Shown here: positions 8,220 to 46,928 of the stretch, in pieces
How positions within the stretch are numbered: the first letter of the stretch is position 1
How the letters are laid out: each line of letters starts with the position of its first letter
Source of the DNA: Candidatus Omnitrophota bacterium
Lineage (GTDB): Bacteria > Omnitrophota > Gorgyraeia > Tantalellales > Tantalellaceae
Direction of reading: 5' to 3'
Length of the DNA: 64,000 bases
Assembly: GCA_041667545.1 (NCBI GenBank)
Contig: JBAYES010000002.1
Coordinates: 5,035-69,034, forward strand
Made by a program: the position numbers and the translations under genes
The notes under the pieces: generated by a model
Told to the model about the DNA's origin: nothing
What the model saw: the letters and a program-made list of their open reading frames with translations, nothing else
Database searches by the model: none

Positions 8220-8369
8220 GGTTCTGCAAAATAGCGTTTTCACGTCGTTGCGAGGGAGCGAAGCGACCGAAGCAATCTTATAACTTGTTATATTTATTGA
8301 GATTGCTTCGTCACTCACTTCGTTCGTTCCTCGCAAAGACGGTATAAAAGTCCATTTTGCAGAACCCTA
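8217..8369. repeat. MITE-like inverted-repeat element, family A (copy 3)
   Basis: TIRs TAGGGTTCTGCAAAAT / ATTTTGCAGAACCCTA; imperfect 150-bp palindrome with core CGTCGTTGCGAGGGAGCGAAGCGACCGAAGCAATC; flanked by 10-bp direct repeat ATTTGAGATA (8207-8216 and 8370-8379). Confidence 0.75.
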
Positions 8370-14986: not shown

Positions 14987-17220
14987 GAAGATACATGCGG
15001 GTAGTTTTAATCTGGTTTTTCTCGGTGTTTTCAGTGTTTTTTGGTTTTCTGTCCGCGGAAGCGCTGGAACTGGTCTCTTTTTCGCAGGAAACAGAGAAAT
15101 ACGGCCTTTTTACCGCTAAATTCCGGACTTCTTATGTAAAGGAAGATCCCGATGATCCCCGGAATATAGATCTTACGGTGGTGTTTGTTTCACCGTCGGG
15201 GGAAGTATCGGAAGTACCCGCTTTCTGCCTGAGTAACAGCAGATCCGAAAAAGTTTCTCTTTGGGAAGTAAGATTTACTCCGGAAGAAGAAGGCGAATTC
15301 TCTTTTTCGGCTAATGCGGCATTGCGCCGCCGGAATGTTTTCAGGGAGTTTTCAGGCGCGCGGTTCAACGTTAAATCTTCCACGATCAAGGGCTTTCTTG
15401 AAAAAAGTCCAAATAATCCCAATTATCTTAAGTTCTCCTCGGGAGAGCCGTTTTTCGGCATAGGCCACAATGTTGCCTGGGTATACAACTCAAATCCTGA
15501 GATATTCGGAAGATATTTTTCTCTTTTGAAAGAAGCCGGCTGTAATATCACGCGTGTATGGATATGTGATTGGTCTTTGCCTCTTGAGTCCGGGAAAACG
15601 GGCAACTATAACCGATCGTCATCTGAAAAAATTGACAGGATACTGGAACTGGCGGAACGTAACGGTATATACATAATGCTCTGCCTTGATACTTACGGAA
15701 GTCTTATGGAAGAATCCGGTATGTGGCGAGAGGGGAAATGGGGCCTGAACCCGTATAATGTGAAGAACGGAGGGCCATGTAAAAAGCCGGAAGATTTTTT
15801 TACAAATAAAGAAGCTGTCCGGCTGTACAAGAACAAACTGAGGTATGTGCTATCGAGATGGGGTTATTCCCCTAACATACTCGCTTTTGAGATATGGAAC
15901 GAATACAATTCTCCTCCTGAATGGACAAAAGAGATGGCCTCTTACCTGAAATCCATGGGAAGAAGCCGAAAACTTGTGACAACAAGTCTCGGATATCCCC
16001 GGGAAAAGGTCTTTGATGAGTCCTCAATATGGAAAATAGACGAAATTGACATTGTAACGCATCATTTTTACGGTAACGGCACGGAGCCGCAACTTGTGAA
16101 TAATCTTTTTCAAAAAAGCCGGGAATTAAAGAGCGGGTACGAAAAACCGTTCATAATATCGGAATTTGGAATAGATTTTTCCAGGAACGACAAGGATTAT
16201 GACATTCGCGGGGAAGGTAAGGCGCTTCACAACAGCATATGGGCATCTGTTTTTTCTGGTGCCGCGGCATCGGCAATGAACTGGTGGCATGATACATATA
16301 TAAGGCCGAAAGATCTTTACCGGCACTATTCGGCGCTTTCTAAGTTCCTTGAAGGCGTAAACTGGGATTCCGGAAAGATAATGTTCCCCGAAGTGAGTCT
16401 TGTGTTTTATCGCGCGGGAGACCTTAAAGGCGGCAAGGCCAGGGATGTTGTTATCCGCCCTTTGGATATATGGACAGTTTCGGGAACGTCGGAATTCGAA
16501 GTTCTGGGGAACGGAGATCTTTCCAAAGGAGGCCTGCCGTTCAAATATCTTCATGGGTCGGAAAAGAAGGATATGATAATAGACCAGATATACAAAGTCG
16601 AATACCCGGAGGAAGGCGGTTTTGTTATAAGGGTAGGCACGGTCAGCCAGGGCGGACATCTTAATGTGTTTGTTAACGACGTAAAGGTTTTAGATAGGGT
16701 ATGTCCGGCGGGGCCGGGTAAAGGCCCCTGGAAAAGAAGCAGGTTCCTGGAAAAGTATAATGTGTACCAGTGCGTATACGACGAGGATATTTTTGTTCCT
16801 GTCCCCGCGGGGAAACACGCCATTCGACTTTCGAATACGGGAGAGGATTGGATAGGGATAGATAAAATAACTCTGAAGAACTATGCCGCTCCGGACATAG
16901 CTGATGCGAGATGCTTGTCCATTAACATAGGCGGGACGCTGATGTTCTGGGTGCAGAACAGAGATTCCAACTGGATGACGGCCTATGAAGGCAGAAAACC
17001 ACATTCTATAAAAGGCGCGTATTTCGAGGTTTATGATCTTTCAGAGAACAGCTATATCCTGGAGATATGGGATACTTATTCGGGAAAAATAATATCTTCG
17101 AAAAAAGCGGAACCATCTTTCGGTAAATTAAGAGTGACCCTCCCCGAATTCCACACCGACCTCGCTTTGAAGCTTACTCCCTCTAAAAAAAGGCTTGACA
17201 GAAATGGCGGGAAGATGTAG
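14983..17220 (+). CDS. secreted glycoside hydrolase family 5-like protein with extra N- and C-terminal beta-sandwich domains
   Basis: 745 aa; signal peptide; TIM-barrel hallmarks 'IWNEYN' (acid/base NE-P-like) and 'FIISEFG' (nucleophile SEFG) typical of GH5/DUF4038. Confidence 0.45.
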   Translation: MRRYMRVVLIWFFSVFSVFFGFLSAEALELVSFSQETEKYGLFTAKFRTSYVKEDPDDPRNIDLTVVFVSPSGEVSEVPAFCLSNSRSEKVSLWEVRFTPEEEGEFSFSANAALRRRNVFREFSGARFNVKSSTIKGFLEKSPNNPNYLKFSSGEPFFGIGHNVAWVYNSNPEIFGRYFSLLKEAGCNITRVWICDWSLPLESGKTGNYNRSSSEKIDRILELAERNGIYIMLCLDTYGSLMEESGMWREGKWGLNPYNVKNGGPCKKPEDFFTNKEAVRLYKNKLRYVLSRWGYSPNILAFEIWNEYNSPPEWTKEMASYLKSMGRSRKLVTTSLGYPREKVFDESSIWKIDEIDIVTHHFYGNGTEPQLVNNLFQKSRELKSGYEKPFIISEFGIDFSRNDKDYDIRGEGKALHNSIWASVFSGAAASAMNWWHDTYIRPKDLYRHYSALSKFLEGVNWDSGKIMFPEVSLVFYRAGDLKGGKARDVVIRPLDIWTVSGTSEFEVLGNGDLSKGGLPFKYLHGSEKKDMIIDQIYKVEYPEEGGFVIRVGTVSQGGHLNVFVNDVKVLDRVCPAGPGKGPWKRSRFLEKYNVYQCVYDEDIFVPVPAGKHAIRLSNTGEDWIGIDKITLKNYAAPDIADARCLSINIGGTLMFWVQNRDSNWMTAYEGRKPHSIKGAYFEVYDLSENSYILEIWDTYSGKIISSKKAEPSFGKLRVTLPEFHTDLALKLTPSKKRLDRNGGKM

Positions 17221-17254
17221 AATTCTTCTTGTAACACACAATGAAGTGTAAAAG

Positions 17255-17290
17255 GGCAGCGGCGTCTCGGCGAGACGCCTTTTTTATTTT
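17255..17290 (+). terminator. rho-independent terminator after GH5-like gene
   Basis: GGCGTCTCggcGAGACGCC stem followed by TTTTTTATTTT. Confidence 0.6.
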
Positions 17291-17379
17291 ACGGGTTTTG
17301 GGATAACGAAGTCCTCGGTCAGGCAAGGTATGCTTGAAAGAGGGCTTTTTTTTTGGATCTTACAGAGATACGGTTTTTA

Positions 17380-17407
17380 TTGATTTACGGTCAGAGAATG
17401 TTAGAAT
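17380..17407 (+). promoter_or_regulatory. candidate sigma70 promoter for glnN
   Basis: TTGATT (17380-85) - 16 nt - TAGAAT (17402-07), 34 nt upstream of glnN ATG. Confidence 0.35.
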
Positions 17408-19577: not shown

Positions 19578-20279
19578 ATGCCGGGTTCAACGGAAAAAGA
19601 ATATCTTGCTACACTTACTAAGATAAGCAAGGCCATTACGAGCGATCTTTATCTGGAGGACATACTTAAGCTCCTGGTAAATTTGACGGCCGGGGTAATG
19701 GCGGCCGAAATATGCGCCATATGGCTTATAGACGAAGACACTAAGGAACTTAAAATAAGAGCTACGCAGGCAATGAGTCAGGAGTACCTTAAGGAAAGAT
19801 CCCTCAAAGTAGGTGAAGGGATAGTGGGGCTTGTGGCCGAGGAAAAAAAACCCATAATAATTTCCAATGTTCTTAAGGATGAGAGATATAAAGAGAAGAA
19901 ACTGGCTAAAAAAGAGAACCTTGTGTCCATGTTAAGTGTGCCTATGATGGTCAAAGAAAAGGTGGCAGGTGTGATCAATGTTTATACTACCGAGACATAC
20001 AAATTTTCTAAAAGCGATGTGAACCTTCTCAGCACGGTGGCAAATCAGGCGGCGGCGGCAATACAGAACACGGAGCTTTTGGTGAAGACAAAGGTAATAC
20101 AGGAAGAACTTGAGACGCGGAAAAGGGTGGAAAAGGCCAAAGGGATACTGATGAGGGAACAGGGTATATCCGAAGAAGAGGCCTATAGTCTTATCAGGAA
20201 ATCCAGCATGAACAAGCGTATGTCCATGAAAGAGATAGCGGAAGCGATAATCTTATCTCAGGAAATACGTAAGTGGTAG
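19578..20279 (+). CDS. GAF-ANTAR RNA-binding antitermination regulator
   Basis: 233 aa; N-terminal GAF; C-terminal ANTAR 'ELETRKRVEKAKGILMREQGISEEEAYSLIRKSSMNKRMSMKEIAEAII'. Confidence 0.7.
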   Translation: MPGSTEKEYLATLTKISKAITSDLYLEDILKLLVNLTAGVMAAEICAIWLIDEDTKELKIRATQAMSQEYLKERSLKVGEGIVGLVAEEKKPIIISNVLKDERYKEKKLAKKENLVSMLSVPMMVKEKVAGVINVYTTETYKFSKSDVNLLSTVANQAAAAIQNTELLVKTKVIQEELETRKRVEKAKGILMREQGISEEEAYSLIRKSSMNKRMSMKEIAEAIILSQEIRKW

Positions 20280-20293
20280 AAGCGGAAGGGAAA

Positions 20294-20450
20294 GGCCCGG
20301 CCATGATGCCGGGGAAGCGTAGATGCTTTATTGTGCGAGGTAATGACCGGCGAAGAAGATATCGGGCCGGATAGATCAAAAAAGATCAAATAGTTCAGGG
20401 CTATGACGCCCTTCTTGAGCAGAGGAATGCCAGGGAGGGCGTTTCTTTTT
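20294..20450 (+). promoter_or_regulatory. candidate ANTAR-type leader: two NAUGAN hexaloop hairpins, the second overlapping an intrinsic terminator
   Basis: hairpin 1 CCCGGC-CAUGAU-GCCGGG (20296-20313); hairpin 2 AGGGC-UAUGAC-GCCCU (20398-20413) whose 3' half GACGCCCT is the 5' arm of terminator stem (pairs with AGGGCGT 20436-42) followed by TTCTTTTT. Confidence 0.35.
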
Positions 20451-20541
20451 GCGAGCGGAGAGGGAAGGGGTAAGAGGTAAGAGGCAAGGGGGAAGAGGTA
20501 AGGGGGGAGCGGGATGTGTTATAAAAAACGAGGAGGGAGAT

Positions 20542-21405
20542 ATGAAAAAAGTGAAGATAAGAAAGACGGCGTTGATGGTGGTTTTTATAATGGCGGCGGC
20601 AGGGTTATTTGCCGTTCCATCTTTCGCGTTATTTGACGTAGAAGGCGGATGGCTCCCGGAAAAGGCGGAAGATATGCCCGAGATCTCGGCAAGCCAGGCT
20701 TTTTTCACCAAGTATATCTGGAGAGGATGGAATTTAGGGGATGAGCCGGTCATGCAGAACGATGTAACTTTATCATGGTATGGCCTGAGTTTTAACTTCT
20801 GGACGAATTACAGCCTTAATAACGATAAGGAAAAAGATTCCGGAAGATATCAGGAATTCACCGAGATAGATTACACGATAAGTTACGGTTTTAACGTGGG
20901 AGAGGCGGCGGAATTCTTTTCAGTCGATATGCCTGAAGCACTGCGTCCGATCGGGATCTCGGGAGGCTACATTTACTATACCTTCCCTAATGTGGACTGG
21001 AACGATAAATTCTTTGACAGCCACGAGATCTTTCTGGGCGTTTCGTACGACACTTTTCTCTCGCCCGAGTTCACGTGGTACTGGGACGTGGGAAGAGGTA
21101 AAGGCAACTCTGACGGAGGCGGGAATGGGTCATACTTTGAGTTCGGTATAAGCCATACGGTCGATCTTGGCGAAACCGGCGCATCCGCCACCTTAGGCAT
21201 GACAACGGGAATAATAAACGAACAGTGGACAGACAAAACGGGGTTGGGGGATATGGTGTTCTCTCTGGGCGTGGATATTCCTTTACTGAACTATTTTACG
21301 GTAACTCCAAGCGTTGCTTATTCCGTTGTCCCGGACAGAGATGTTTACAACGATAACTCGTCCAATGAATTTTTCGGCGGGATAACTGTAAGTTTCAGCT
21401 ATTAA
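20542..21405 (+). CDS. outer-membrane beta-barrel protein (porin-like), first gene of amtB-glnK cluster
   Basis: about 288 aa from ATG 20542 (RBS AGGAGGGAG); signal peptide 'MKKVKIRKTALMVVFIMAAAGLFAVPSFA'; alternating amphipathic strands; C-terminal 'VSFSY' aromatic terminus. Confidence 0.45.
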   Translation: MKKVKIRKTALMVVFIMAAAGLFAVPSFALFDVEGGWLPEKAEDMPEISASQAFFTKYIWRGWNLGDEPVMQNDVTLSWYGLSFNFWTNYSLNNDKEKDSGRYQEFTEIDYTISYGFNVGEAAEFFSVDMPEALRPIGISGGYIYYTFPNVDWNDKFFDSHEIFLGVSYDTFLSPEFTWYWDVGRGKGNSDGGGNGSYFEFGISHTVDLGETGASATLGMTTGIINEQWTDKTGLGDMVFSLGVDIPLLNYFTVTPSVAYSVVPDRDVYNDNSSNEFFGGITVSFSY

Positions 21406-21427
21406 GGACCGGATCTAACGATAAGAG

Positions 21428-21580
21428 TAGAGTTCTGCAAAATAGCTGTTTCACGTCGTTGCGAGGGAGCGAAGCGACCAAAGCAATCCTATATCTTATT
21501 GTATTTATTGAGATTGTTTTGTCACTCACTTTGTTCGTTCCTCGTAAAGACGGAATAAAAGTCTATTTTGCAGAACCCTA
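21428..21580. repeat. MITE-like inverted-repeat element, family A (copy 5)
   Basis: TIRs TAGAGTTCTGCAAAAT / ATTTTGCAGAACCCTA; flanked by perfect 10-bp direct repeat ACGATAAGAG (21418-27 and 21581-90). Confidence 0.75.
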
Positions 21581-21606
21581 ACGATAAGAGAACAAAGGAG
21601 GTCAAA

Positions 21607-22944
21607 ATGAGAATCATTATAAGAGCGTTAAAGATCCTCCCGCTGATATTTTTGTCAACCGCTATGACTGTTTCGGCAGAAGAGCCTACGGCGGCTACGA
21701 ATGCCGTGGCTATCGACACGATCTGGATACTGATGGCGGCTTTTCTGGTGTTTTTCATGCAAGCGGGATTTGCAATGGTCGAAACGGGATTTACGAGAGC
21801 GAAGAATGCCTGCAACATAATGATGAAGAATCTTATGGATTTCGCCGTGGGTTCGGTAGCGTTTTGGGCGGTGGGCTTCGGCATTATGTTCGGGGCTTCG
21901 GCTTTCGGTGTTTTCGGAACGAGCGGTTTCTTCCTGTCCACCGGAGATCCTTCCACAAGCGAGGGTTTGTGGCAGTACGCCTTCTGGATGTTCCAGGCGG
22001 TTTTCGCGGCAACCGCCGCTACAATAGTTTCCGGAGCTATGGCTGAAAGGACAAAGTTCAAATCCTATATGGCATATAGCGCCGTCATAACGGCCTTGAT
22101 ATATCCTGTGGTTGGACATTGGATATGGGGAGATGGTTGGCTGTCCGCAAAAGGAATGATAGATTTCGCGGGTTCTACAGTAGTTCATTCAACAGGGGGT
22201 TGGGCGGCTTTGGCCGGAGCCATACTTTTGGGGCCTCGTATAGGAAAATATTCTCCCGACGGTTCCTCGAACGCTATTACGGGCCATAATATTCCGCTTG
22301 CCTCATTGGGTGTATTCATATTGTGGTTCGGCTGGTTCGGTTTTAATGCCGGAAGTACAACTTCCGGAACGGATCTAAGTATCGCGACAATAGCCGTGAC
22401 GACTAATCTCGCGGCCGCCGCGGGATCCATCAGCGCGATGATATTCGTATGGTTCAAATTCGGGAAACCGGACATAAGTATGTCTTTGAACGGGGCTCTT
22501 GCCGGCCTTGTGGGTATAACCGCGGGATGCGCCAATGTTTCCCCTTCGAGCGCTCTCATGATAGGAGCGGTATCCGGGATACTTGTTGTTATAAGCGTTG
22601 AGTTCCTTGACAAGGTACTAAAGATAGATGATCCCGTTGGCGCTGTTTCGGTTCATGGGGTCTGCGGAGCCTGGGGAACTCTTGCTGTGGGACTTTTCGC
22701 CCAGGAAACATTCGGCGGAGTGAACGGCCTCTTTCACGGGGGAGGGATGACACAGTTCATTACCCAGCTTACCGGTGTGGTAAGTGTTTTCGCGTGGGTG
22801 TTCACTTCCGCGTTTATCGTCTTCTATGTTATCAAGGTTGTCATGGGACTCAGGGCCTCCGATGAAGAACAGCTCAAGGGGCTCGATATATGCGAGCATG
22901 GTATGGAGGCGTATTCCGGGTTCCAGACCTTTATGACACAGTAG
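21607..22944 (+). CDS. amtB: ammonium transporter
   Basis: about 445 aa from ATG 21607 with signal peptide; Amt signature 'DFAGSTVVHSTGGWAALAGAILLGPRIGKY', 11 TM helices. Confidence 0.85.
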   Translation: MRIIIRALKILPLIFLSTAMTVSAEEPTAATNAVAIDTIWILMAAFLVFFMQAGFAMVETGFTRAKNACNIMMKNLMDFAVGSVAFWAVGFGIMFGASAFGVFGTSGFFLSTGDPSTSEGLWQYAFWMFQAVFAATAATIVSGAMAERTKFKSYMAYSAVITALIYPVVGHWIWGDGWLSAKGMIDFAGSTVVHSTGGWAALAGAILLGPRIGKYSPDGSSNAITGHNIPLASLGVFILWFGWFGFNAGSTTSGTDLSIATIAVTTNLAAAAGSISAMIFVWFKFGKPDISMSLNGALAGLVGITAGCANVSPSSALMIGAVSGILVVISVEFLDKVLKIDDPVGAVSVHGVCGAWGTLAVGLFAQETFGGVNGLFHGGGMTQFITQLTGVVSVFAWVFTSAFIVFYVIKVVMGLRASDEEQLKGLDICEHGMEAYSGFQTFMTQ

Positions 22945-23118
22945 GATTGGCGCCGCGTTTTACATTGGCGTCGAGAACGAAAAGTAATAAGTAAAAGTAG
23001 AAAGAAGAAAAGCGGAAGATATATGAGGAGAACGAGAAATGACGTTTTGAAGTCGTCCTGAGGGTCCTGCCAAACCTGAGAGGCAGCTAAGGGAGGGGCC
23101 GATGGCTAAGGAAAAACT

Positions 23119-23316
23119 TAGGGTTATGCAAAATAGCGTTTTCACGTCGTTGCGAGGGAGCGAAGCGACCGAAGCAATCTTGTAACTTGTTATATTTATT
23201 GAGATTGCTTCGGCCTTCAACCATGCTCAGGACGAAATCCTGAGCGAAGCGAAGGGCTTCGTTACTCACTTCGTTCCTCGCAAAGACGTTATAAAAGTCC
23301 ATTTTGAAGAACTCTA
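23119..23316. repeat. MITE-like inverted-repeat element, family A (long variant, copy 6)
   Basis: TAGGGTTATGCAAAAT...CCATTTTGAAGAACTCTA; flanking direct repeat AGGAAAAACT (23109-18 and 23318-27, 1-nt offset). Confidence 0.65.
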
Positions 23317-23343
23317 AAGGAAAAACTAAAAAAGGAGGTTGAG

Positions 23344-24696
23344 ATGTACGTTCTTAAATGGTTTAGGAGGATGGTGATCGGTTTGCCGGCGGCTATACTG
23401 GCTATGTCGGGGTCTTTGGCGCAAGCCAGTCCCGCCGCTGATGTGGGCGGTTATGCATTGATTTCCGGTATAGATACCATGTGGGTGCTTATAGCGGCTT
23501 TTATGGTCTTTATAATGCAGGCCGGTTTCGGTATGCTGGAGGCAGGCCTTATAAGGACCAAGAATACCTGTAATGTGCTTATGAACAATTTTCTGGATTT
23601 CTGTATGGCATCGATGGGATTTTTTATTTTCGGATATGCCATAATGTTCGGTACGGGAAACGGGTTCATGGGGTTTACGGGATTTATGCTCATAGGCGCC
23701 GCGCATGAAGGGAGTATCCCTCTTGAGGCGGCATGGCTTTTTCATGCCGTTTTCTGCGGAGCGGCCGCGACCATCGTAGCGGGAGGAATAGCAGAGAGAA
23801 TGAAGTTCAAATGTTATCTTATATATTCTTTTCTGATATCCGCTACGATATATCCTATAGTAGGACATTGGGTTTGGGGAGGAGGATGGCTTGCCGAGAT
23901 GGGGTTCGGTGATTTCGCAGGATCTACAGTTGTCCACGCTGTCGGCGGTACGGCCGCACTTGTGGGCACGGCCATTTTGGGGCCGAGAATAGGTAAGTTC
24001 AACAAGGACGGCTCAGCTAATGCCATAGAAGGGCATTCAATGGCGCTTGCCTCGCTTGGGGCACTTATACTATGGTTCGCGTGGTTCGGATTCAATCCCG
24101 GATCAACTTTGGCGGTAGGTGACGGTAGTTTGATAGCGAAAGTCGCTGTTAACACAAATCTCGCGGCGGCCGCGGGAGGGCTTGTAGCTATGTTCTTCGC
24201 GTGGAAAAAGTTCGGGAAACCGGATCTTTCAATGACTATGAACGGGGCTCTTGCGGGGCTTGTGGCCGTAACAGCTCCCTGCGCGTTCGTTCTTCCGTAC
24301 GAATCGATAATAATAGGAGGAGTAGGCGGAATAATAGTTGTTCTGGGAACCGTGTTCCTCGATAAGATACACATCGATGATCCTGTGGGAGCGGTTCCGG
24401 TACATATGATGAACGGTATATGGGGGACGCTTGCTGTGGGGCTTTTCGGGCAAGAAGCATTAGGGCTTGCACGAGACGGCCTCTTTCATGGCGGCGGGTT
24501 TACTCAGCTTGGGGTTCAGGCCTTGGGAGCCTTGGCCGTAGTGCTTTTTGTCGGAGCGGGTATGACCGTCATATTCAAAACAATAGACCTGGCTATGGGG
24601 CTGAGAGTGTCCAGGGAAGAAGAGCTTAAGGGGTTGGATATAAGCGAACATGGTATGGAAGCTTATGCGGGATTCCAGATATTCACTACAAAGTAG
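23344..24696 (+). CDS. amtB: ammonium transporter (second paralogue)
   Basis: 450 aa; 'DFAGSTVVHAVGGTAALVGTAILGPRIGKF'; RBS AAAAGGAGG. Confidence 0.85.
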   Translation: MYVLKWFRRMVIGLPAAILAMSGSLAQASPAADVGGYALISGIDTMWVLIAAFMVFIMQAGFGMLEAGLIRTKNTCNVLMNNFLDFCMASMGFFIFGYAIMFGTGNGFMGFTGFMLIGAAHEGSIPLEAAWLFHAVFCGAAATIVAGGIAERMKFKCYLIYSFLISATIYPIVGHWVWGGGWLAEMGFGDFAGSTVVHAVGGTAALVGTAILGPRIGKFNKDGSANAIEGHSMALASLGALILWFAWFGFNPGSTLAVGDGSLIAKVAVNTNLAAAAGGLVAMFFAWKKFGKPDLSMTMNGALAGLVAVTAPCAFVLPYESIIIGGVGGIIVVLGTVFLDKIHIDDPVGAVPVHMMNGIWGTLAVGLFGQEALGLARDGLFHGGGFTQLGVQALGALAVVLFVGAGMTVIFKTIDLAMGLRVSREEELKGLDISEHGMEAYAGFQIFTTK

Positions 24697-24748
24697 ATCC
24701 CGGGGGTTTAGTGTATAAGTGAAAGAGGGTAATGCGATGAAGGATATG

Positions 24749-24900
24749 AGAGTTCTGCAAAATAGTTGGTTCACGTCGTTGCGAGGGAGCGAAGCGACCG
24801 AAGCAATCCTATATCTTATTGTATTTATTGAGATTGCTTCGTCACTCACTTTGTTCGTTCCTCGCAAAGACGGAATAAAAGTCTATTTCTCATAGCCCTA
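24749..24900. repeat. MITE-like element family A (copy 7, degenerate right TIR)
   Basis: AGAGTTCTGCAAAATAGTTGGTTCACGTCGTTGCGAGGGAGCGAAGCGACCGAAGCAATC...GTCTATTTCTCATAGCCCTA. Confidence 0.6.
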
Positions 24901-24927
24901 TAAAAGGACATAAATAAGGAGGGGAAA

Positions 24928-25269
24928 ATGAAACTTATAGTAGCCATGATACAGCCGCATAAACTGCCGGATGTAAAAGAGGCCCTTTTCGCGGCGGATG
25001 TTCACAAAATGACCGTTACTAACGCTCTTGGATGCGGACAGCAGAAAGGTTTCACGGAGACATACAGAGGAGTAATACACGAAGTGAACCTGCTAAAGAA
25101 GATACGCATAGAGATAGCTGTGAACGAAGATTTTGTGAGGCCGACGGTAGACGCTATAATAAAAGGCGCTCGCACCGGGAAGATAGGCGATGGGAAAATA
25201 CTCGTGATGGATCTTGCCGAGTGCATCAGGATCCGAACCGGAGAAACCGGCAGAGAAGCCATAGGGTGA
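24928..25269 (+). CDS. glnK: nitrogen regulatory protein P-II
   Basis: 113 aa; T-loop '[14 protein letters not shown]' with conserved Tyr; immediately downstream of amtB. Confidence 0.85.
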
Positions 25270-25466: not shown

Positions 25467-25678
25467 TCAACGCCAACTCGTAAAGAATACATCCGAATTG
25501 TGGGCAAAAAGTGATTAAAAAGTCTTGAATTTTTACTGGAACGAGTATATTATGGAAATGGCTCTAATGAGAGAAAAACCGGCTCAGCGCCGAACCGGGG
25601 ACGACAAAGAAGTTGTTATCGAGGGCAGTCTATTTTTTTGTCAGGTAAGGCAAAGTTATTTGGGAGAGGTTTTTTATC

Positions 25679-33033: not shown

Positions 33034-33133
33034 CATTAAAGTAGACCCGAGCATGTTGCTAAAATTTTCATTGACAGAATGTGCTCGAGGGTGTTAAAAT
33101 TATTTAGACAAAGAAGTTGATCGAAGGCTATGA

Positions 33134-33167
33134 GGCCCCCGGATTTGTAGAAGGGGGCTTTTATTTT
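33134..33167 (+). terminator. rho-independent terminator after pyrG
   Basis: GCCCCC-ggatttgtagaa-GGGGGC followed by TTTTATTTT. Confidence 0.6.
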
Positions 33168-33330
33168 GTGGCCGATCTATAACAGGCAAAGATGCCCTTT
33201 CAGGATCGAAAGATTTCTGTGAGGGCGTTTTTTTTGAGATAAGATGCACATTTTGGAGGCAAAAACTGCACAAGCAGGGGTTATTGTTCGATAAGATACC
33301 AGATATAGTGAACCCCTCCGGAGAGTTGTA

Positions 33331-33543
33331 ATGGAAAAACTGGACAGGATGCTCCTTACTATCGGGAGAGGCAAAGTGTATAATAGGATAATTGCTGAAA
33401 CAGAAAAAGAACTTATAGAGGCAGCTCTGATGAAGGCATTCGGGAACCAGTCAATAGCATCAAAAATACTCGGGATTAACAGGAATACCATGAGGGCAAA
33501 GATAAGGAAACTAAATATAGATCCCGCGAACTTCAGGATATAG
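33331..33543 (+). CDS. small Fis-type helix-turn-helix DNA-binding protein
   Basis: 70 aa; C-terminal 'NQSIASKILGINRNTMRAKIRKL' matches Fis/NtrC-C-terminal HTH; sits directly upstream of the tandem-repeat element and gltB. Confidence 0.5.
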   Translation: MEKLDRMLLTIGRGKVYNRIIAETEKELIEAALMKAFGNQSIASKILGINRNTMRAKIRKLNIDPANFRI

Positions 33544-33550
33544 GGATCCA

Positions 33551-33725
33551 GGGACGGTTCTCATTTTGAACCTACACCTGTCCCTATGTTTTGGGGGACA
33601 GGTGTAGGTTCAAGGAAAGGACAGGTGTAGGTTCAAGGAAAGGACAGGTGTAGGTTCAAGTTGGGGACAGGTGTAGGTTCAAATCGAGGGACGGGTGTAG
33701 GATTAGATTCAGAACCGTCCCTGAA
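33551..33725 (+). repeat. tandem direct-repeat array (5 x about 23 bp GGACAGGTGTAGGTTCAAGGAAA-like) with terminal conserved hairpin, bounded by inverted repeat GGGACGGTTC...GAACCGTCCC; copy 2
   Basis: seen directly; left arm AACCTACACCTGTCCC (33569-84) is exact reverse complement of the repeat-unit core; final unit GGGACGGGTGTAGGATTAGATTCAGAACCGTCCCTGAA about 90% identical to 4905-4944; ends 10 nt before gltB ATG. Confidence 0.8.
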
Positions 33726-43080: not shown

Positions 43081-43109
43081 TTGACTCCCGGGTAATAAAG
43101 TAAGATAAT
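43081..43109 (+). promoter_or_regulatory. candidate sigma70 promoter upstream of nfnAB
   Basis: TTGACT - 17 nt - GATAAT. Confidence 0.4.
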
Positions 43110-43300
43110 CGTTCAAGGTCGGAAATGAACAAAGACGTTCATCCTCGCTGTAATACTATGGGAGGGGAACGCCTTTTTTTTTATCTGGATTGATAGATAT
43201 TAAGGCATTTTTTGGCCGCTGTTTAATCAGCTGAGAATGGCATAGATGATAATAATGAGATCAGTGGACTTAAGGACATAACAAAAAAGTGAGATGCGAA

Positions 43301-44143
43301 ATGCACAGGATAGTATTAAAAAAACAATTAAACTCCGAGATATCACTCGTGGAATTTGAGGCCCGGGACCTTGCTCTGGCCGCTGAGCCGGGTCAATTCG
43401 TTATATTGAGGGTCGACGAGAAGGGCGAACGTTTCCCCCTTACGATATATGACTTTGACCGGGCGAAGGGAACGATAACGGTGGTATGCCAGGCAGTCGG
43501 CGTAAGTACAAAAAAATTATGCGCTTTGAAAGAGGGAGAAGCCATACTTGATGCGGCTGGTCCGCTGGGACATGCTTCAAATGTAAAGGATATCGGCAAG
43601 GTCATCTGTATAGGAGGAGGAGTAGGGACAGCAGAGGCGTATCCTATAGCCCGCGCCATGAAGCGATCAGGCAATGATGTCACGGTAATAATAGGCGCCA
43701 GAAATGAGGAACTTGTTATCTGCGAAAAAGAGATCAGAGAGTTTTGCGATAAGGTCCATGTCACTACCGATGACGGGTCTTACGGCAGGAAAGGTTTTGT
43801 TACCGATGTGCTTAAAGAACTGATAGAGAAGGAAAAGTATGACCTGGTATTTGCCATAGGCCCGGTTCCCATGATGAAAAAGGTAGCGGAGGTAACCCGC
43901 GAGAAAGACATAAAAACCATGGTTTCACTGAACTCTATAATGATAGACGGAACCGGCATGTGCGGCGGATGCAGGCTTAAGTACGGGGGAAAATCAAGCT
44001 TTGCGTGTGTGGACGGTCCGGAATTTGACGCGAGTTTAGTGGATTTTGACGATCTTATGAAAAGAGGGGTCCGCTACAAGGACAAAGAAAAAAAAGCGAT
44101 GGATCATTACGGCGAAAGATGCCGTATCGGCCTTGACAATTAA
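43301..44143 (+). CDS. nfnA: NfnA / sulfide dehydrogenase beta-like subunit (FAD/NAD ferredoxin-NADP reductase fold with 2Fe-2S)
   Basis: about 280 aa from ATG 43301 (ORF track begins at GTG 43289); 'PGQFVILR' FAD-binding, C-terminal 'GTGMCGGCRL' 2Fe-2S motif characteristic of PyrK/NfnA family. Confidence 0.7.
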   Translation: MHRIVLKKQLNSEISLVEFEARDLALAAEPGQFVILRVDEKGERFPLTIYDFDRAKGTITVVCQAVGVSTKKLCALKEGEAILDAAGPLGHASNVKDIGKVICIGGGVGTAEAYPIARAMKRSGNDVTVIIGARNEELVICEKEIREFCDKVHVTTDDGSYGRKGFVTDVLKELIEKEKYDLVFAIGPVPMMKKVAEVTREKDIKTMVSLNSIMIDGTGMCGGCRLKYGGKSSFACVDGPEFDASLVDFDDLMKRGVRYKDKEKKAMDHYGERCRIGLDN

Positions 44144-45573
44144 TGTTTACGGAGAAAATGAAAATGACTGAAAAGGTAAAAATGAGAGAACGACCGGCTG
44201 GAAAAAGGACAAAAGATTTCGGCGAAGTGCCGTATGGCTATAGCGAAGAAGAAGCCGTGGCAGAAGCTTCAAGATGCCTGGGGTGTAAGACAGCTCCCTG
44301 CGTAAGCGGTTGTCCGGCCGAGGTAGACATTCCCGCGTTTATAAGGCTTATAAAGGAAAGAAAGTTTGATGAAGCGATAGCGGTCATAAAAAAGACCAAC
44401 ACTCTTCCTGCGGTCTGCGGAAGGGTATGTCCCCAGGAAGACCAATGCGAAAAGAAATGTGTTCTTGCGAAAACCGGGAACCCCATAGATATAGGGTCTC
44501 TTGAAAGATTTGCAGCCGATCATGAAGCCCGAGAGACCGGGGTTTCATCCGAGGGGGCAGCGGCAAATTCCAAAACCAAGGGAGTAAAAGTGGCTGTTAT
44601 CGGATCAGGACCGGCCGGACTTACGGCGGCGGCTGATCTGGCGGGAATGGGATACAGCGTTACGGTATTCGAGGGTCTGCACGCGCCCGGGGGAGTCCTT
44701 ACGTACGGTATTCCCGAATTCAGGCTTCCAAAAGAAATAGTAATGCGTGAGGTGGACGACATAAAGGCTCTCGGAGTGGATATAAAGTATAATTACGTCA
44801 TAGGTAAGATCAAGACCATAGAAGGCCTTAGAAAAGAGGGCTTTAAGGCATTTTTTATCTGTACCGGCGCGGGCCTTCCGAATTTTATGGGTATTGAAGG
44901 CGAGAATCTCTCGGGCGTCTATTCGGCCAATGAGTTTTTGACCCGGGTTAATCTCATGAAAGCGTATGATTTTCCAAGATATGATACTCCCGTAAATGTA
45001 GGATCCAAGGTGGCGGTCATAGGCGCCGGTAATGTGGCTTTGGATTCGGCCAGATGCGCTCTTCGTCTCGGAGCGGAAAAGGTTTATATAGTATACCGCA
45101 GGACCGAACAGGAAATGCCCGCGAGGCTGGATGAAATACATCATGCAAAGGAAGAAGGGATAGAGTTCCATCTTCTTACGACGCCCGTGGAAATAAAAGG
45201 CGACGAAAAAGGGGATATAACCGGCATGATCTGCATTAAAAATTCTCTGGGAGAGCCTGACGATAGCGGAAGAAGAAGGCCTGTTCCCATTAAATCTTCG
45301 GAATTCGAGATGGATGTCGACACCGTAATAGTAGCTATCGGCAACGGGCCGAACCCTCTTCTTCTTAAGACCGTCGAAGGGTTGGAGTTGAACAAATGGG
45401 GAAACATTAAGGCCGATGAGGAAGGCAGAACATCGGTTAAAGATATTTTCGCCGGGGGCGACATAGTGACGGGAGCCGCAACCGTAATAGCGGCCATGGG
45501 AGCGGGTAAAAAAGCGGCCCGTGTCATAGACAAGTATCTTTCAGCGGAAGATGCAAAAAACAAGACAGTTTAA
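44143..45573 (+). CDS. nfnB: NfnB / GltD-like NADPH oxidoreductase subunit (2x[4Fe-4S], FAD, NADPH)
   Basis: 476 aa (start ambiguous among four in-frame ATGs 44143-44182); 'CLGCKTAPCVSGCPAEVDIP', 'VAVIGSGPAGLTAA', 'VAVIGAGNVALD'. Confidence 0.75.
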   Translation: MFTEKMKMTEKVKMRERPAGKRTKDFGEVPYGYSEEEAVAEASRCLGCKTAPCVSGCPAEVDIPAFIRLIKERKFDEAIAVIKKTNTLPAVCGRVCPQEDQCEKKCVLAKTGNPIDIGSLERFAADHEARETGVSSEGAAANSKTKGVKVAVIGSGPAGLTAAADLAGMGYSVTVFEGLHAPGGVLTYGIPEFRLPKEIVMREVDDIKALGVDIKYNYVIGKIKTIEGLRKEGFKAFFICTGAGLPNFMGIEGENLSGVYSANEFLTRVNLMKAYDFPRYDTPVNVGSKVAVIGAGNVALDSARCALRLGAEKVYIVYRRTEQEMPARLDEIHHAKEEGIEFHLLTTPVEIKGDEKGDITGMICIKNSLGEPDDSGRRRPVPIKSSEFEMDVDTVIVAIGNGPNPLLLKTVEGLELNKWGNIKADEEGRTSVKDIFAGGDIVTGAATVIAAMGAGKKAARVIDKYLSAEDAKNKTV

Positions 45574-45590
45574 AAAACCGGAGGTGTTAG

Positions 45591-46928
<1,338 letters not shown>

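What the first reader, a model, noticed from the sequence alone, without database searches (positions are those of the whole stretch)
20294..20450. ANTAR-style leader (two NAUGAN hexaloop hairpins, the second mutually exclusive with a terminator) between the GAF-ANTAR gene and the OMP-amtB-amtB-glnK operon
Hairpin 1 is CCCGGC-CAUGAU-GCCGGG. Hairpin 2 is AGGGC-UAUGAC-GCCCU. The 3' half of hairpin 2 (GACGCCCU) is also the 5' arm of an intrinsic terminator (…AGGGCGU followed by UUCUUUUU). This is the architecture ANTAR proteins use for antitermination (dual hexaloops with G at loop position 4, second stem competing with the terminator). The cognate-looking GAF-ANTAR regulator is encoded immediately upstream, next to glnN. 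This would be an RNA-level nitrogen switch for ammonium uptake, with the GAF domain possibly sensing 2-oxoglutarate or glutamine, or interacting with P-II. Caveats: loop position 1 is C or U rather than the usual A, and the two hairpins are about 85 nt apart.
Basis: partly seen in the sequence, partly recalled or inferred. Interest (0 to 1): 0.6.

Follow-up and report, generated by a model that had tools for sequence, protein, structure and literature searches.

The report
ANTAR antiterminator leader of ammonium-uptake operon
The RNA leader before the ammonium-transporter operon of this uncultured Omnitrophota bacterium is a protein-controlled stop/go switch of a known type (ANTAR antitermination), and it is one of several such switches that place most of the cell's nitrogen-assimilation genes under a still-uncharacterised GAF-ANTAR regulator.

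Summary
The hairpins and terminator are in the sequence as described. Hairpin 2 (20397-20412, loop UAUGAC) shares its 3' arm with a strong intrinsic terminator (20405-20443 plus U tract, -26 kcal/mol).

A covariance model built only from relatives, without the window or its closest kin, puts its best hit in the 64 kb here (30.9 bits, E about 1e-4). Hairpin 1 is a separate conserved element at the 3' end of the GAF-ANTAR gene.

The same module recurs 58 times in 81 loci, 56 on the regulator's strand. P2 loop position 4 is G in 53 of 53, 97% of stem cells pair, and 47 of 52 hits overlap a terminator. It lies upstream of amtB/glnK, glnN, gltBD, gdhA, carA and pyrG. The window has further modules before glnN, gltBD and a gdhA operon.

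The GAF domain is closest to those of PtsP and NifA. ANTAR leaders before amtB/P-II genes were already predicted in other phyla in 2012, so this is a new member of a known kind. No GAF-ANTAR protein appears to have been characterised. Binding, antitermination and the signal are untested.

The parts
19578..20279 (+). GAF-ANTAR one-component regulator gene (233 aa), 38 nt after glnN
   Evidence: Pfam GAF_2 8e-24 and ANTAR 6e-21. The ANTAR region matches EutV 6wsh at 3e-12; the GAF region matches PtsP GAF 3ci6 at 1e-19. NCBIfam partial matches are PtsP 2e-22 and NifA 4e-18. It is 100% identical to a protein of a Candidatus Omnitrophota MAG.
20296..20313 (+). It is a conserved hexaloop hairpin at the 3' end of the regulator gene, not the P1 of the module. 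Its role is unknown.
   Evidence: Orthologues are CUGAC-CAUGAU-GUCAG (L002), CUGAC-CAUGAG-GUCAG (L001/L083), CUGAC-GCGGAA-GUCAG (L006/L086) and CUGAC-CCUGAA-GUCAG (L085, no amtB leader downstream). It has no U tract and is not hit by models R1 or R2.
20314..20329 (+). Adjacent weak hairpin GAAGC-GUAGAU-GCUUU; not conserved
   Evidence: Present in the fold. The alignment with L001, L002 and L006 shows no conservation.
20374..20387 (+). P1 (recruitment-hairpin position): GAUC-AAAAAA-GAUC, 4 bp, hexaloop with A1 but A instead of G at position 4
   Evidence: R1 and R2 alignments. It is conserved as GGUC-AAAAAA-GAUC in L001 and GAUC-AAAAAA-GAUC in L002. Energy -3.7 kcal/mol.
20397..20412 (+). P2 (antiterminator hairpin): AGGGC-UAUGAC-GCCCU, hexaloop with G4 but U at position 1
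   Evidence: Energy -8.2 kcal/mol. Family P2 loops have G4 in 53 of 53.
20405..20451 (+). Intrinsic terminator: 13+3 bp stem 20405-20443 plus U tract; its 5' arm overlaps the P2 3' arm by 8 nt
   Evidence: Minimum-free-energy fold, -26.0 kcal/mol. Conserved in L001, L002 and L006.
20542..25269 (+). Controlled operon: OMP-like gene 20542-21405, amtB 21568-22944, amtB 23344-24696, glnK 24928-25269
   Evidence: Pfam. The synteny glnN-ANTAR-OMP-amtB-glnK is seen in about 20 related loci.
17195..17354 (+). glnN leader. Sigma-70 promoter 17195-17223. Module A: P1 17236-17249, P2 17254-17267, terminator 17261-17290. Module B (P2 only): GGGAU-AACGAA-GUCCU 17300-17315, terminator 17311-17354.
   Evidence: Promoter matches 11 of 12 positions. 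R2 hit at 17234-17282, E 5e-3. Fold. Both modules are conserved in L002 (2631-2666 and 2708-2746).
33071..33235 (+). Leader of the fis-like/gltB/gltD operon. Promoter 33071-33100. Module A: P1 33107-33118, P2 33126-33137, terminator 33134-33167. Module B (P2 only): 33185-33196, terminator 33192-33235.
   Evidence: Promoter matches 11 of 12 positions. R2 hits with E 7e-4 and 0.039. Fold. Downstream genes: HTH_8, then GOGAT large and small subunits.
43081..43182 (+). Leader of the nfnA-like/gltD-like/gdhA operon (43289-46928). Promoter 43081-43109. A single hexaloop hairpin AUGAAC-AAAGAC-GUUCAU 43125-43142 overlaps terminator 43134-43182.
   Evidence: Promoter matches 10 of 12 positions. Weak R2 hit, E 0.37. 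Fold. Pfam.
25600..25617 (+). carA leader: consensus P1-like hairpin GACGAC-AAAGAA-GUUGUU with no clear competing terminator (weak, uncertain)
   Evidence: R1 E 0.057, R2 E 1.5. Conserved in L001 and L081. carA has full modules in L025 and L026.

Best explanation
The 20374-20451 segment is a transcription attenuator of the ANTAR type.

How it most likely works:
- By default the nascent RNA folds into a -26 kcal/mol intrinsic terminator (20405-20451). This stops transcripts before the OMP-amtB-amtB-glnK operon. No sigma-70 promoter lies between the regulator gene and P1, so these transcripts probably read through from glnN/GAF-ANTAR.
- When the GAF-ANTAR protein encoded just upstream is active, its dimer binds the hexaloop hairpins. 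It may first bind the P1 position (GAUC-AAAAAA-GAUC, 20374-20387). It then binds P2 (AGGGC-UAUGAC-GCCCU, 20397-20412), contacting the G at loop position 4.
- This holds the 5' arm of the terminator in P2, so RNA polymerase reads on.

The same protein is inferred to control tandem or single modules before glnN and its own gene, fis-like/gltBD, a gdhA operon and possibly carAB. These leaders sit behind near-consensus sigma-70 promoters, so together they would form a nitrogen-assimilation regulon governed after transcription initiation.

The GAF domain resembles the nitrogen-status-sensing GAF domains of PtsP and NifA. The likely signal is therefore low glutamine and/or high 2-oxoglutarate switching the protein on.

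Shown: the structures, the mutual exclusivity, conservation and covariation, gene context, and domain homology.
Inferred: RNA binding by this protein, the direction of the response, and the ligand.

Model-based detection:
- The independent model R2 has its top hit in the window at 20372-20413 (E 1.3e-4). Its next hits fall in the gltB and glnN leaders.
- There are 58 hits with E <= 1 in 81 sources, and 56 are on the strand of the regulator gene.
- 47 of 52 hits are immediately followed by a terminator that overlaps P2.

Family features:
- P1 loops have A1 in 42/54 and G4 in 46/54. P2 loops have A1 in 38/53 and G4 in 53/53. The linker is mostly 4-5 nt.
- 97% of stem cells pair. There are 78 double-sided changes against 23.7 in shuffles (0 of 500 shuffles reach this), and slid controls fall to 26-45% paired.

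Context:
- Downstream genes are amtB/OMP, glnK, glnN, GS-like, gltB, archaeal-type GOGAT, gdhA, carA, pyrG and a fis-like gene.
- The GAF-ANTAR gene is adjacent in the window and in all related loci.

Domain homology:
- The ANTAR domain is homologous to EutV, Rv1626, NasR and AmiR.
- The GAF domain is closest to those of PtsP and NifA.

Literature:
- The defining RNA features and linker limits are in PMC3369931.
- G4 is the only base-specific contact, and a single hexaloop is the minimal site (PMC8934654).
- The PtsP GAF domain binds glutamine (PMC4848567).
Against: - In this particular leader both loops deviate from the A1/G4 rule. P1 is AAAAAA (no G4, the base needed by EutV) and P2 starts with U. 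These deviations are shared with the closest relatives L001 and L002.
- No promoter was found directly upstream of P1 in the window. A possible extended -10 (TGTTATAAA, about 20518-20526) lies downstream of the terminator, so part of amtB expression might bypass the switch.
- Alignment A2 was fitted to the model, so its pair counts lean towards the structure.
- All loci were chosen because they carry the regulator gene, so specificity to genomes with this protein is untested.
- No binding, termination or ligand data exist.
Confidence: 0.8

Rival explanations
1. One reading: hairpin 1 (20296-20313) and hairpin 2 (20397-20412), 83 nt apart, are the two hairpins of one ANTAR dual-hexaloop site.
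For: - Both hairpins have hexaloops with G4 (CAUGAU, UAUGAC).
- Hairpin 1 is conserved in close relatives, with stem covariation and NNNGAN loops.
- The nearer hairpin, P1, lacks G4.
Against: - The family linker is mostly 4-5 nt.
- In EutV a 14-nt linker or a 20-nt extension abolishes antitermination (PMC3369931, PMC8934654).
- Hairpin 1 orthologues persist where no amtB leader follows (L085) and are absent from many loci with full modules (L004, L005, L081).
- R1 and R2 align GAUC-AAAAAA-GAUC as P1.
Confidence: 0.06
2. Single-hexaloop mode. Only P2 is a functional protein site in this leader. The AAAAAA hairpin is a degenerate remnant, and the module works like the P2-only second modules of tandem arrays.
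For: - P1 lacks G4, the only base-specific contact in EutV-RNA (PMC8934654).
- P2-only modules exist at 17300-17354 and 33185-33235, and a single-hairpin module at 43125-43182.
- Second modules in L051 and L007 have no clear P1.
Against: - The AAAAAA hairpin is strictly conserved in sequence and position in L001 and L002, while the flanking sequence drifts. This suggests selection.
- P1 is present in most promoter-proximal modules.
Confidence: 0.2
3. An ordinary operon terminator. 20405-20451 simply ends the glnN/GAF-ANTAR transcript, amtB has its own promoter downstream, and the overlapping hexaloop hairpin is coincidental.
For: - No promoter was found between the regulator gene and P1.
- A possible extended -10 lies at about 20518-20526 (read).
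- The pattern GGCNNNGNNGCCC is not enriched overall.
Against: - The independent model's top hit in the window falls here.
- The same P1-P2-terminator unit follows clear promoters and directly precedes the OMP or amtB gene in L007, L021, L050 and L051.
- There is covariation, G4 is invariant in P2, and hits are biased 56:2 to one strand.
Confidence: 0.05
4. The attenuators are real, but they are controlled by another factor, such as a REC-ANTAR response regulator encoded elsewhere, and not by the adjacent GAF-ANTAR protein.
For: - Known nitrogen ANTAR systems use REC-ANTAR (GnfR, PMC2995071) or NIT-ANTAR proteins.
- Some loci carry ANTAR paralogues nearby (L023, L060, L064, L071, L078).
- Only 64 kb of the genome was seen.
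Against: - Modules sit immediately downstream of the GAF-ANTAR gene in at least 27 loci, whatever gene follows. They also sit upstream of glnN/GAF-ANTAR, which suggests autoregulation.
- The pairing of protein and motif persists from Omnitrophota to Thermodesulfobacteriota at 60% protein identity.
Confidence: 0.1

Closest known systems
EutV and the eutP/eutG/eutS/eutA leaders of Enterococcus faecalis (REC-ANTAR; PMC3369931, PMC8934654; PDB 6WSH/6WW6)
   Same: - Two short hairpins with hexaloops and a short linker.
- The P2 3' arm is shared with an intrinsic terminator.
- Several attenuators fall under one regulator.
- The ANTAR domain is homologous (3e-12).
   Different: - The sensor is a GAF domain, not a phosphorylated receiver.
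- The regulon is nitrogen assimilation, not ethanolamine use.
- In this leader P1 has A4 and P2 has U1.
- P2-only modules occur in tandem arrays.
Predicted ANTAR nitrogen regulons of Ramesh et al. 2012 (for example Desulfotomaculum acetoxidans with 13 attenuators in 6 units; amtB/P-II leaders in Clostridium thermocellum; Table S2)
   Same: - The same RNA motif overlaps terminators upstream of ammonium transporter/P-II, glutamine synthetase and glutamate synthase genes.
- Attenuators occur in multiples and in tandem.
   Different: - The phyla differ (Omnitrophota and Thermodesulfobacteriota here).
- Here the cognate candidate is a GAF-ANTAR gene fused into the glnN operon.
- Those earlier predictions were not tied to a GAF-type regulator and were not tested.
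GnfK/GnfR of Geobacter sulfurreducens (REC-ANTAR; PMC2995071)
   Same: Antitermination at terminator-containing leaders of nitrogen genes, including a hypothetical-gene/glnK/amtB operon.
   Different: - It is a two-component system under a sigma-54 master regulator.
- It mainly controls nif genes.
- Here there is a one-component GAF sensor and sigma-70-type promoters.
NasR and the nasF leader of Klebsiella oxytoca (NIT-ANTAR; PMC7496416)
   Same: A one-component ANTAR protein whose ligand-binding domain gates RNA binding to a hexaloop antiterminator that competes with a terminator.
   Different: - The sensor is a nitrate-binding NIT domain.
- It controls a single operon.
GAF domains of PtsP (EI-Ntr) and NifA
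   Same: These are the best sequence matches of the sensor domain (3ci6 at 1e-19; NCBIfam PtsP 2e-22 and NifA 4e-18). The PtsP GAF domain binds glutamine (PMC4848567).
   Different: - The output is an RNA-binding ANTAR domain, not a PEP-phosphotransferase or sigma-54 activator domain.
- The ligand is not tested here.

Membership tests
ANTAR-target dual-hexaloop antiterminator RNA (as defined in PMC3369931) | Two hairpins, each with at least 3 bp and a six-nucleotide loop | tested here: met
   P1 has 4 bp and loop AAAAAA (20374-20387). P2 has 5 bp and loop UAUGAC (20397-20412).
ANTAR-target dual-hexaloop antiterminator RNA (as defined in PMC3369931) | G at loop position 4 of P2, the antiterminator hairpin | tested here: met
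   The loop UAUGAC has G4. Family-wide it is 53 of 53.
ANTAR-target dual-hexaloop antiterminator RNA (as defined in PMC3369931) | G at loop position 4 of P1, and A at position 1 of both loops | tested here: not met
   In this leader the P1 loop is AAAAAA (A1 yes, G4 no) and the P2 loop begins with U. The same holds in L001 and L002. Across the family the rule mostly holds: P1 has A1 in 42/54 and G4 in 46/54, and P2 has A1 in 38/53. This leader is therefore a deviant instance of a conforming family.
ANTAR-target dual-hexaloop antiterminator RNA (as defined in PMC3369931) | Short linker between hairpins (5-12 nt in eut; 3 or 14 nt is inactive) | tested here: met
The linker is 9 nt between 20387 and 20397, or 11 nt to the 3-bp P2 core. 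The family mode is 4-5 nt.
ANTAR-target dual-hexaloop antiterminator RNA (as defined in PMC3369931) | The P2 3' arm overlaps the 5' arm of an intrinsic terminator | tested here: met
   The overlap is 8 nt (20405-20412). The terminator is -26 kcal/mol with a U tract. 47 of 52 family hits show the same arrangement.
ANTAR-target dual-hexaloop antiterminator RNA (as defined in PMC3369931) | An ANTAR-domain protein is encoded in the genome | tested here: met
   The gene at 19578-20279 has an ANTAR domain at 6e-21.
ANTAR-target dual-hexaloop antiterminator RNA (as defined in PMC3369931) | Protein binding to the hairpins and protein-dependent read-through | not testable with these tools
   This needs EMSA or SPR and in vitro transcription.
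Any curated Rfam family (riboswitch, leader, sRNA) | Match at or near the gathering score | tested here: not met
   There were no matches at gathering score in the whole window. Only chance-level hits (E about 8-9) fell in 20100-20700. No Rfam family matching this leader was returned.
GAF-ANTAR one-component regulators | An N-terminal GAF domain joined by a helical linker to a C-terminal ANTAR domain | tested here: met
   GAF covers residues 26-163 and ANTAR covers 175-225. The match to EutV covers 150-228 and includes the linker helix.
GAF-ANTAR one-component regulators | Ligand-dependent control of RNA binding | not testable with these tools
   There is only homology to the GAF domains of PtsP and NifA.

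The most novel reading that the evidence does not exclude
The GAF-ANTAR protein is the master nitrogen regulator of Omnitrophota and of related Thermodesulfobacteriota lineages. It would be a one-component sensor of glutamine or 2-oxoglutarate with a PtsP/NifA-like GAF domain, and it would take the place of NtrC, GlnR or NtcA. Near-consensus constitutive sigma-70 promoters would drive GS, GOGAT, GDH, Amt/P-II and CarAB, and expression would be decided entirely by single or tandem ANTAR attenuators. The regulator would feed back on its own glnN/GAF-ANTAR transcript. The conserved G4 hexaloop hairpin at the 3' end of its gene (20296-20313) would be an additional autoregulatory or titrating site.
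Probability: 0.4. Interest if true: 0.55.

Novelty: new member of a known kind. Interest (0 to 1): 0.4.

Why it matters
Reviews up to 2020 list no characterised GAF-ANTAR protein (PMC3369931, PMC7496416), and a 2025 review mentions GAF only as a domain architecture (PMC12591593). My full-text search for 'GAF-ANTAR' found only one passing mention.

This family is large: 6233 clusters match at E <= 1e-10. It is very conserved, at 75% identity or more across more than 100 clusters, mostly labelled Omnitrophota. It comes with a clearly defined set of RNA targets.

That makes it a ready system for working out how a small-molecule-sensing GAF domain gates ANTAR RNA binding. It also gives a way to read nitrogen regulation in an uncultured phylum straight from sequence.

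The concept itself, ANTAR attenuators governing amtB/P-II and GS/GOGAT genes, was already predicted in other phyla in 2012, so the advance is incremental.

Tried and rejected
- **Rfam.** Neither the leader at E <= 10 nor the whole window at gathering score gave a meaningful family.
- **Hairpin 1 as P1.** Rejected on spacing and on comparative grounds.
- **Terminator tips as a third G4 hexaloop site** (GCA-GAGGAA-UGC here, AAGGAA in L001). Only 8 of 47 attached terminators have hexaloop tips and 4 have G4. The background is 25 of 228 with 5 having G4. Rejected.
- **Bare pattern counts.** GGCNNNGNNGCCC occurs 3 times against 2.0 expected, so it is not enriched; only the positions are informative. 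The P1 core ACAAAGANGT occurs 3 times against 0.35 expected, with 0 of 100 shuffles reaching 3.
- **Sigma-70 promoter for the amtB leader.** The scan found none between 20280 and 20374. Candidates I read by eye there were poor.
- **My own terminator finder.** It is permissive and gives many hits inside genes. I used it only to check the positions next to model hits.
- **Literature search 'Omnitrophota' + 'ANTAR'.** It returned only 'Antarctic' noise.
- **Hairpin 1 plus hairpin 1b as their own dual site.** There is no model hit, the linker is 0-1 nt, and hairpin 1b is not conserved.

Full report
**1. The observation**

- Hairpin 1, CCCGGC-CAUGAU-GCCGGG, is at 20296-20313.
- Hairpin 2, AGGGC-UAUGAC-GCCCU, is at 20397-20412.
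- A long hairpin has a 5' arm (20405-20417) that begins with the 3' arm of hairpin 2. Its 3' arm ends at 20443, and UUUCUUUUU follows.

RNAfold places this terminator in the minimum-free-energy structure of the leader (z = -4.0). Energies are -26.0 kcal/mol for the terminator and -8.2 for hairpin 2. On its own the RNA should therefore terminate. This is the expected default for an antiterminator that needs a protein to stabilise it.

The flanking genes are as stated: GS type III (glnN), a 233-aa GAF+ANTAR protein, a signal-peptide protein without a Pfam hit, two amtB genes and a P-II gene. The GAF-ANTAR protein is 100% identical to one from a Candidatus Omnitrophota MAG.

**2. Comparative evidence**

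I fetched 80 loci that encode relatives of the regulator at 59-94% identity. They come from Omnitrophota and Thermodesulfobacteriota. About 20 keep the order glnN, GAF-ANTAR, OMP, amtB, glnK.

Every syntenic leader has a 3-5 bp hairpin, usually GGC-N6-GCC, whose 3' arm starts a terminator. Most also have a second hexaloop hairpin a few nucleotides upstream, for example UAAC-AAAGAA-GUUA.

- A covariance model from ten such units (R1) found 58 matches with E <= 1 in 716 kb. Of these, 56 are on the strand of the regulator gene.
- 47 of 52 matches are directly followed by a terminator that overlaps P2.
- Loop composition follows the published ANTAR rule. P1 has A1 in 42/54 and G4 in 46/54. P2 has A1 in 38/53 and G4 in 53/53. 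The linker is mostly 4-5 nt.
- Stems pair in 97% of cells. There are 78 double-sided changes against 23.7 in shuffles, and sliding the partner columns drops pairing to 26-45%. The caveat is that this alignment was fitted to the model.
- The P2 stem switches between GGC/GCC, GAC/GUC and AGC/GCU. The deltaproteobacterial loci use CAAUAC-AAAGNN-GUAUUG, then AA, then GAC-AAAGGC-GUC.

**3. Independence from the window**

A second model, R2, was trained only on 29 matches from L004-L080. I ran it over the window with filters off.
- Its best hit in 128 kb is 20372-20413 (30.9 bits, E 1.3e-4).
- The next hits are 33104-33140 (E 7e-4), 17234-17282 (E 5e-3) and 33159-33199 (E 0.039).
- All are on the + strand, in intergenic leaders, and overlap terminators.

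**4. Which hairpin is P1**

Both models align GAUC-AAAAAA-GAUC (20374-20387) as P1, 9 nt before P2. This hairpin is conserved as GGUC-AAAAAA-GAUC in L001 and GAUC-AAAAAA-GAUC in L002, within the only block of the leader that is strongly conserved.

In EutV, lengthening the linker to 14 nt, or by 20 nt, abolishes antitermination (PMC3369931; PMC8934654).

Hairpin 1 is nevertheless real and conserved among close relatives, with a covarying stem and NNNGAN loops. The versions are CUGAC-CAUGAU-GUCAG, CUGAC-CAUGAG-GUCAG, CUGAC-GCGGAA-GUCAG and CUGAC-CCUGAA-GUCAG. It stays with the 3' end of the regulator gene even in L085, where no amtB leader follows, and it is missing from L004, L005 and L081. 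I treat it as a separate element of unknown role, possibly a single-hexaloop site for the same protein.

**5. Deviations in this leader**

The P1 loop lacks G4 and the P2 loop starts with U. In the EutV-RNA structure, G4 is the only base-specific contact, and a single hexaloop is the minimal site (PMC8934654). P2 should therefore be competent, while P1 may be a weak recruiter. A P2-only mode is a live alternative. The window also has P2-only second modules (17300-17354, 33185-33235) and a single-hairpin module (43125-43182).

**6. The regulon in the window**

Near-consensus sigma-70 promoters sit a few nucleotides before P1 in three leaders.
- 17195-17223 (11 of 12 positions), before two tandem modules and glnN/GAF-ANTAR.
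- 33071-33100 (11 of 12 positions), before two tandem modules, a 70-aa Fis-family HTH gene, gltB and gltD.
- 43081-43109 (10 of 12 positions), before one module and an nfnA-like/gltD-like/gdhA operon.

The carA leader keeps a consensus hexaloop hairpin (25600-17), and carA has full modules in L025 and L026.

No promoter was found between the regulator gene and the amtB module. In this genome the amtB operon is therefore probably reached by read-through from glnN/GAF-ANTAR, through a third gate.

In other loci the module precedes pyrG, a GS-I-like gene, archaeal-type glutamate synthase, DUF1846, DUF2490 and a small sigma-70-like protein.

**7. The regulator**

The ANTAR part matches EutV (6wsh, 3e-12), Rv1626, NasR and AmiR. 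The GAF part matches the GAF domains of PtsP/EI-Ntr best (3ci6 at 1e-19, 3trc). In NCBIfam it matches PtsP (2e-22) and NifA (4e-18). The PtsP GAF domain binds glutamine, which inhibits EI-Ntr (PMC4848567). From my own knowledge, the NifA GAF domain responds to 2-oxoglutarate or P-II. This supports a nitrogen-status ligand but does not prove one.

**8. Relation to what is known**

Ramesh et al. 2012 defined this RNA motif. They predicted it upstream of P-II, ammonium transporter, GS and GOGAT genes in many bacteria, including 13 attenuators in six units in Desulfotomaculum acetoxidans. Geobacter GnfR (REC-ANTAR) antiterminates leaders that include a hypothetical-gene/glnK/amtB operon. The mechanism and the theme are therefore known.

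What is new is the lineage, the tight pairing with a GAF-type one-component regulator embedded in the glnN operon, and the breadth of the regulon behind consensus promoters. GAF-ANTAR proteins were described as uncharacterised in 2012 and 2020. A full-text search for 'GAF-ANTAR' found one passing mention.

**9. Verdict**

- This is a new member of a known kind, of moderate interest.

Noticed in passing
window 21429-21580, 23120-23271, 24749-24900; core also at 8243, 14340, 14470, 56537(-), 58633(-), 63957: A dispersed repeat of about 152 nt has terminal inverted repeats (GAGTTCTGCAAAATAG...CTATTTTGCAGAAC) and the core CGTCGTTGCGAGGGAGCGAAGCGACC. It occurs nine times in 64 kb, with 0 expected. 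Three copies fill the intergenic gaps inside the amtB operon. The same gaps are only 180, 108 and 49 nt in the relative L001, so these look like MITE-like insertions.
   Followed up: partly
window 33596-33682: A 23-nt tandem repeat (GGACAGGTGTAGGTTCAAGGAAA, 3.8 copies, 93% match) lies between the small Fis-family HTH gene (33331-33543) and gltB. It could be an array of binding sites for that protein.
   Followed up: no
window 33331-33543; L027 about 9614, L039 about 8867, L005 about 8610: A conserved 70-79-aa Fis/NtrC-C-terminal-type HTH_8 protein is the first gene after the tandem ANTAR modules, ahead of glutamate synthase. It may form a second, DNA-level tier of the nitrogen regulon.
   Followed up: partly
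L016 about 5928, L023 about 6608, L045 about 5820, L056 about 5495: In several relatives the gene directly after the ANTAR module downstream of the regulator is a protein of about 175 aa with sigma-70 region 2 and region 4 matches. OMP-amtB lies further downstream, which suggests an attenuator-controlled sigma factor.
   Followed up: partly
window 20455-20512: A purine-only stretch with GGTAAGAGG-like near-repeats lies between the terminator and the OMP start codon. It is only loosely conserved in L001. A possible extended -10 (TGTTATAAA) follows at about 20518-20526.
   Followed up: no
window 17380-17407: A second, weaker sigma-70-like promoter (9 of 12 positions, with TG) lies downstream of both glnN attenuators. 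It could give attenuator-independent basal expression of glnN and the regulator.
   Followed up: no
window 20542-21405: The first gene of the amtB operon encodes a 287-aa signal-peptide protein with no Pfam or NCBIfam match. It is conserved in this position before amtB across Omnitrophota at 30-79% identity. In L030 a DUF2490 protein is the first gene after the module.
   Followed up: partly
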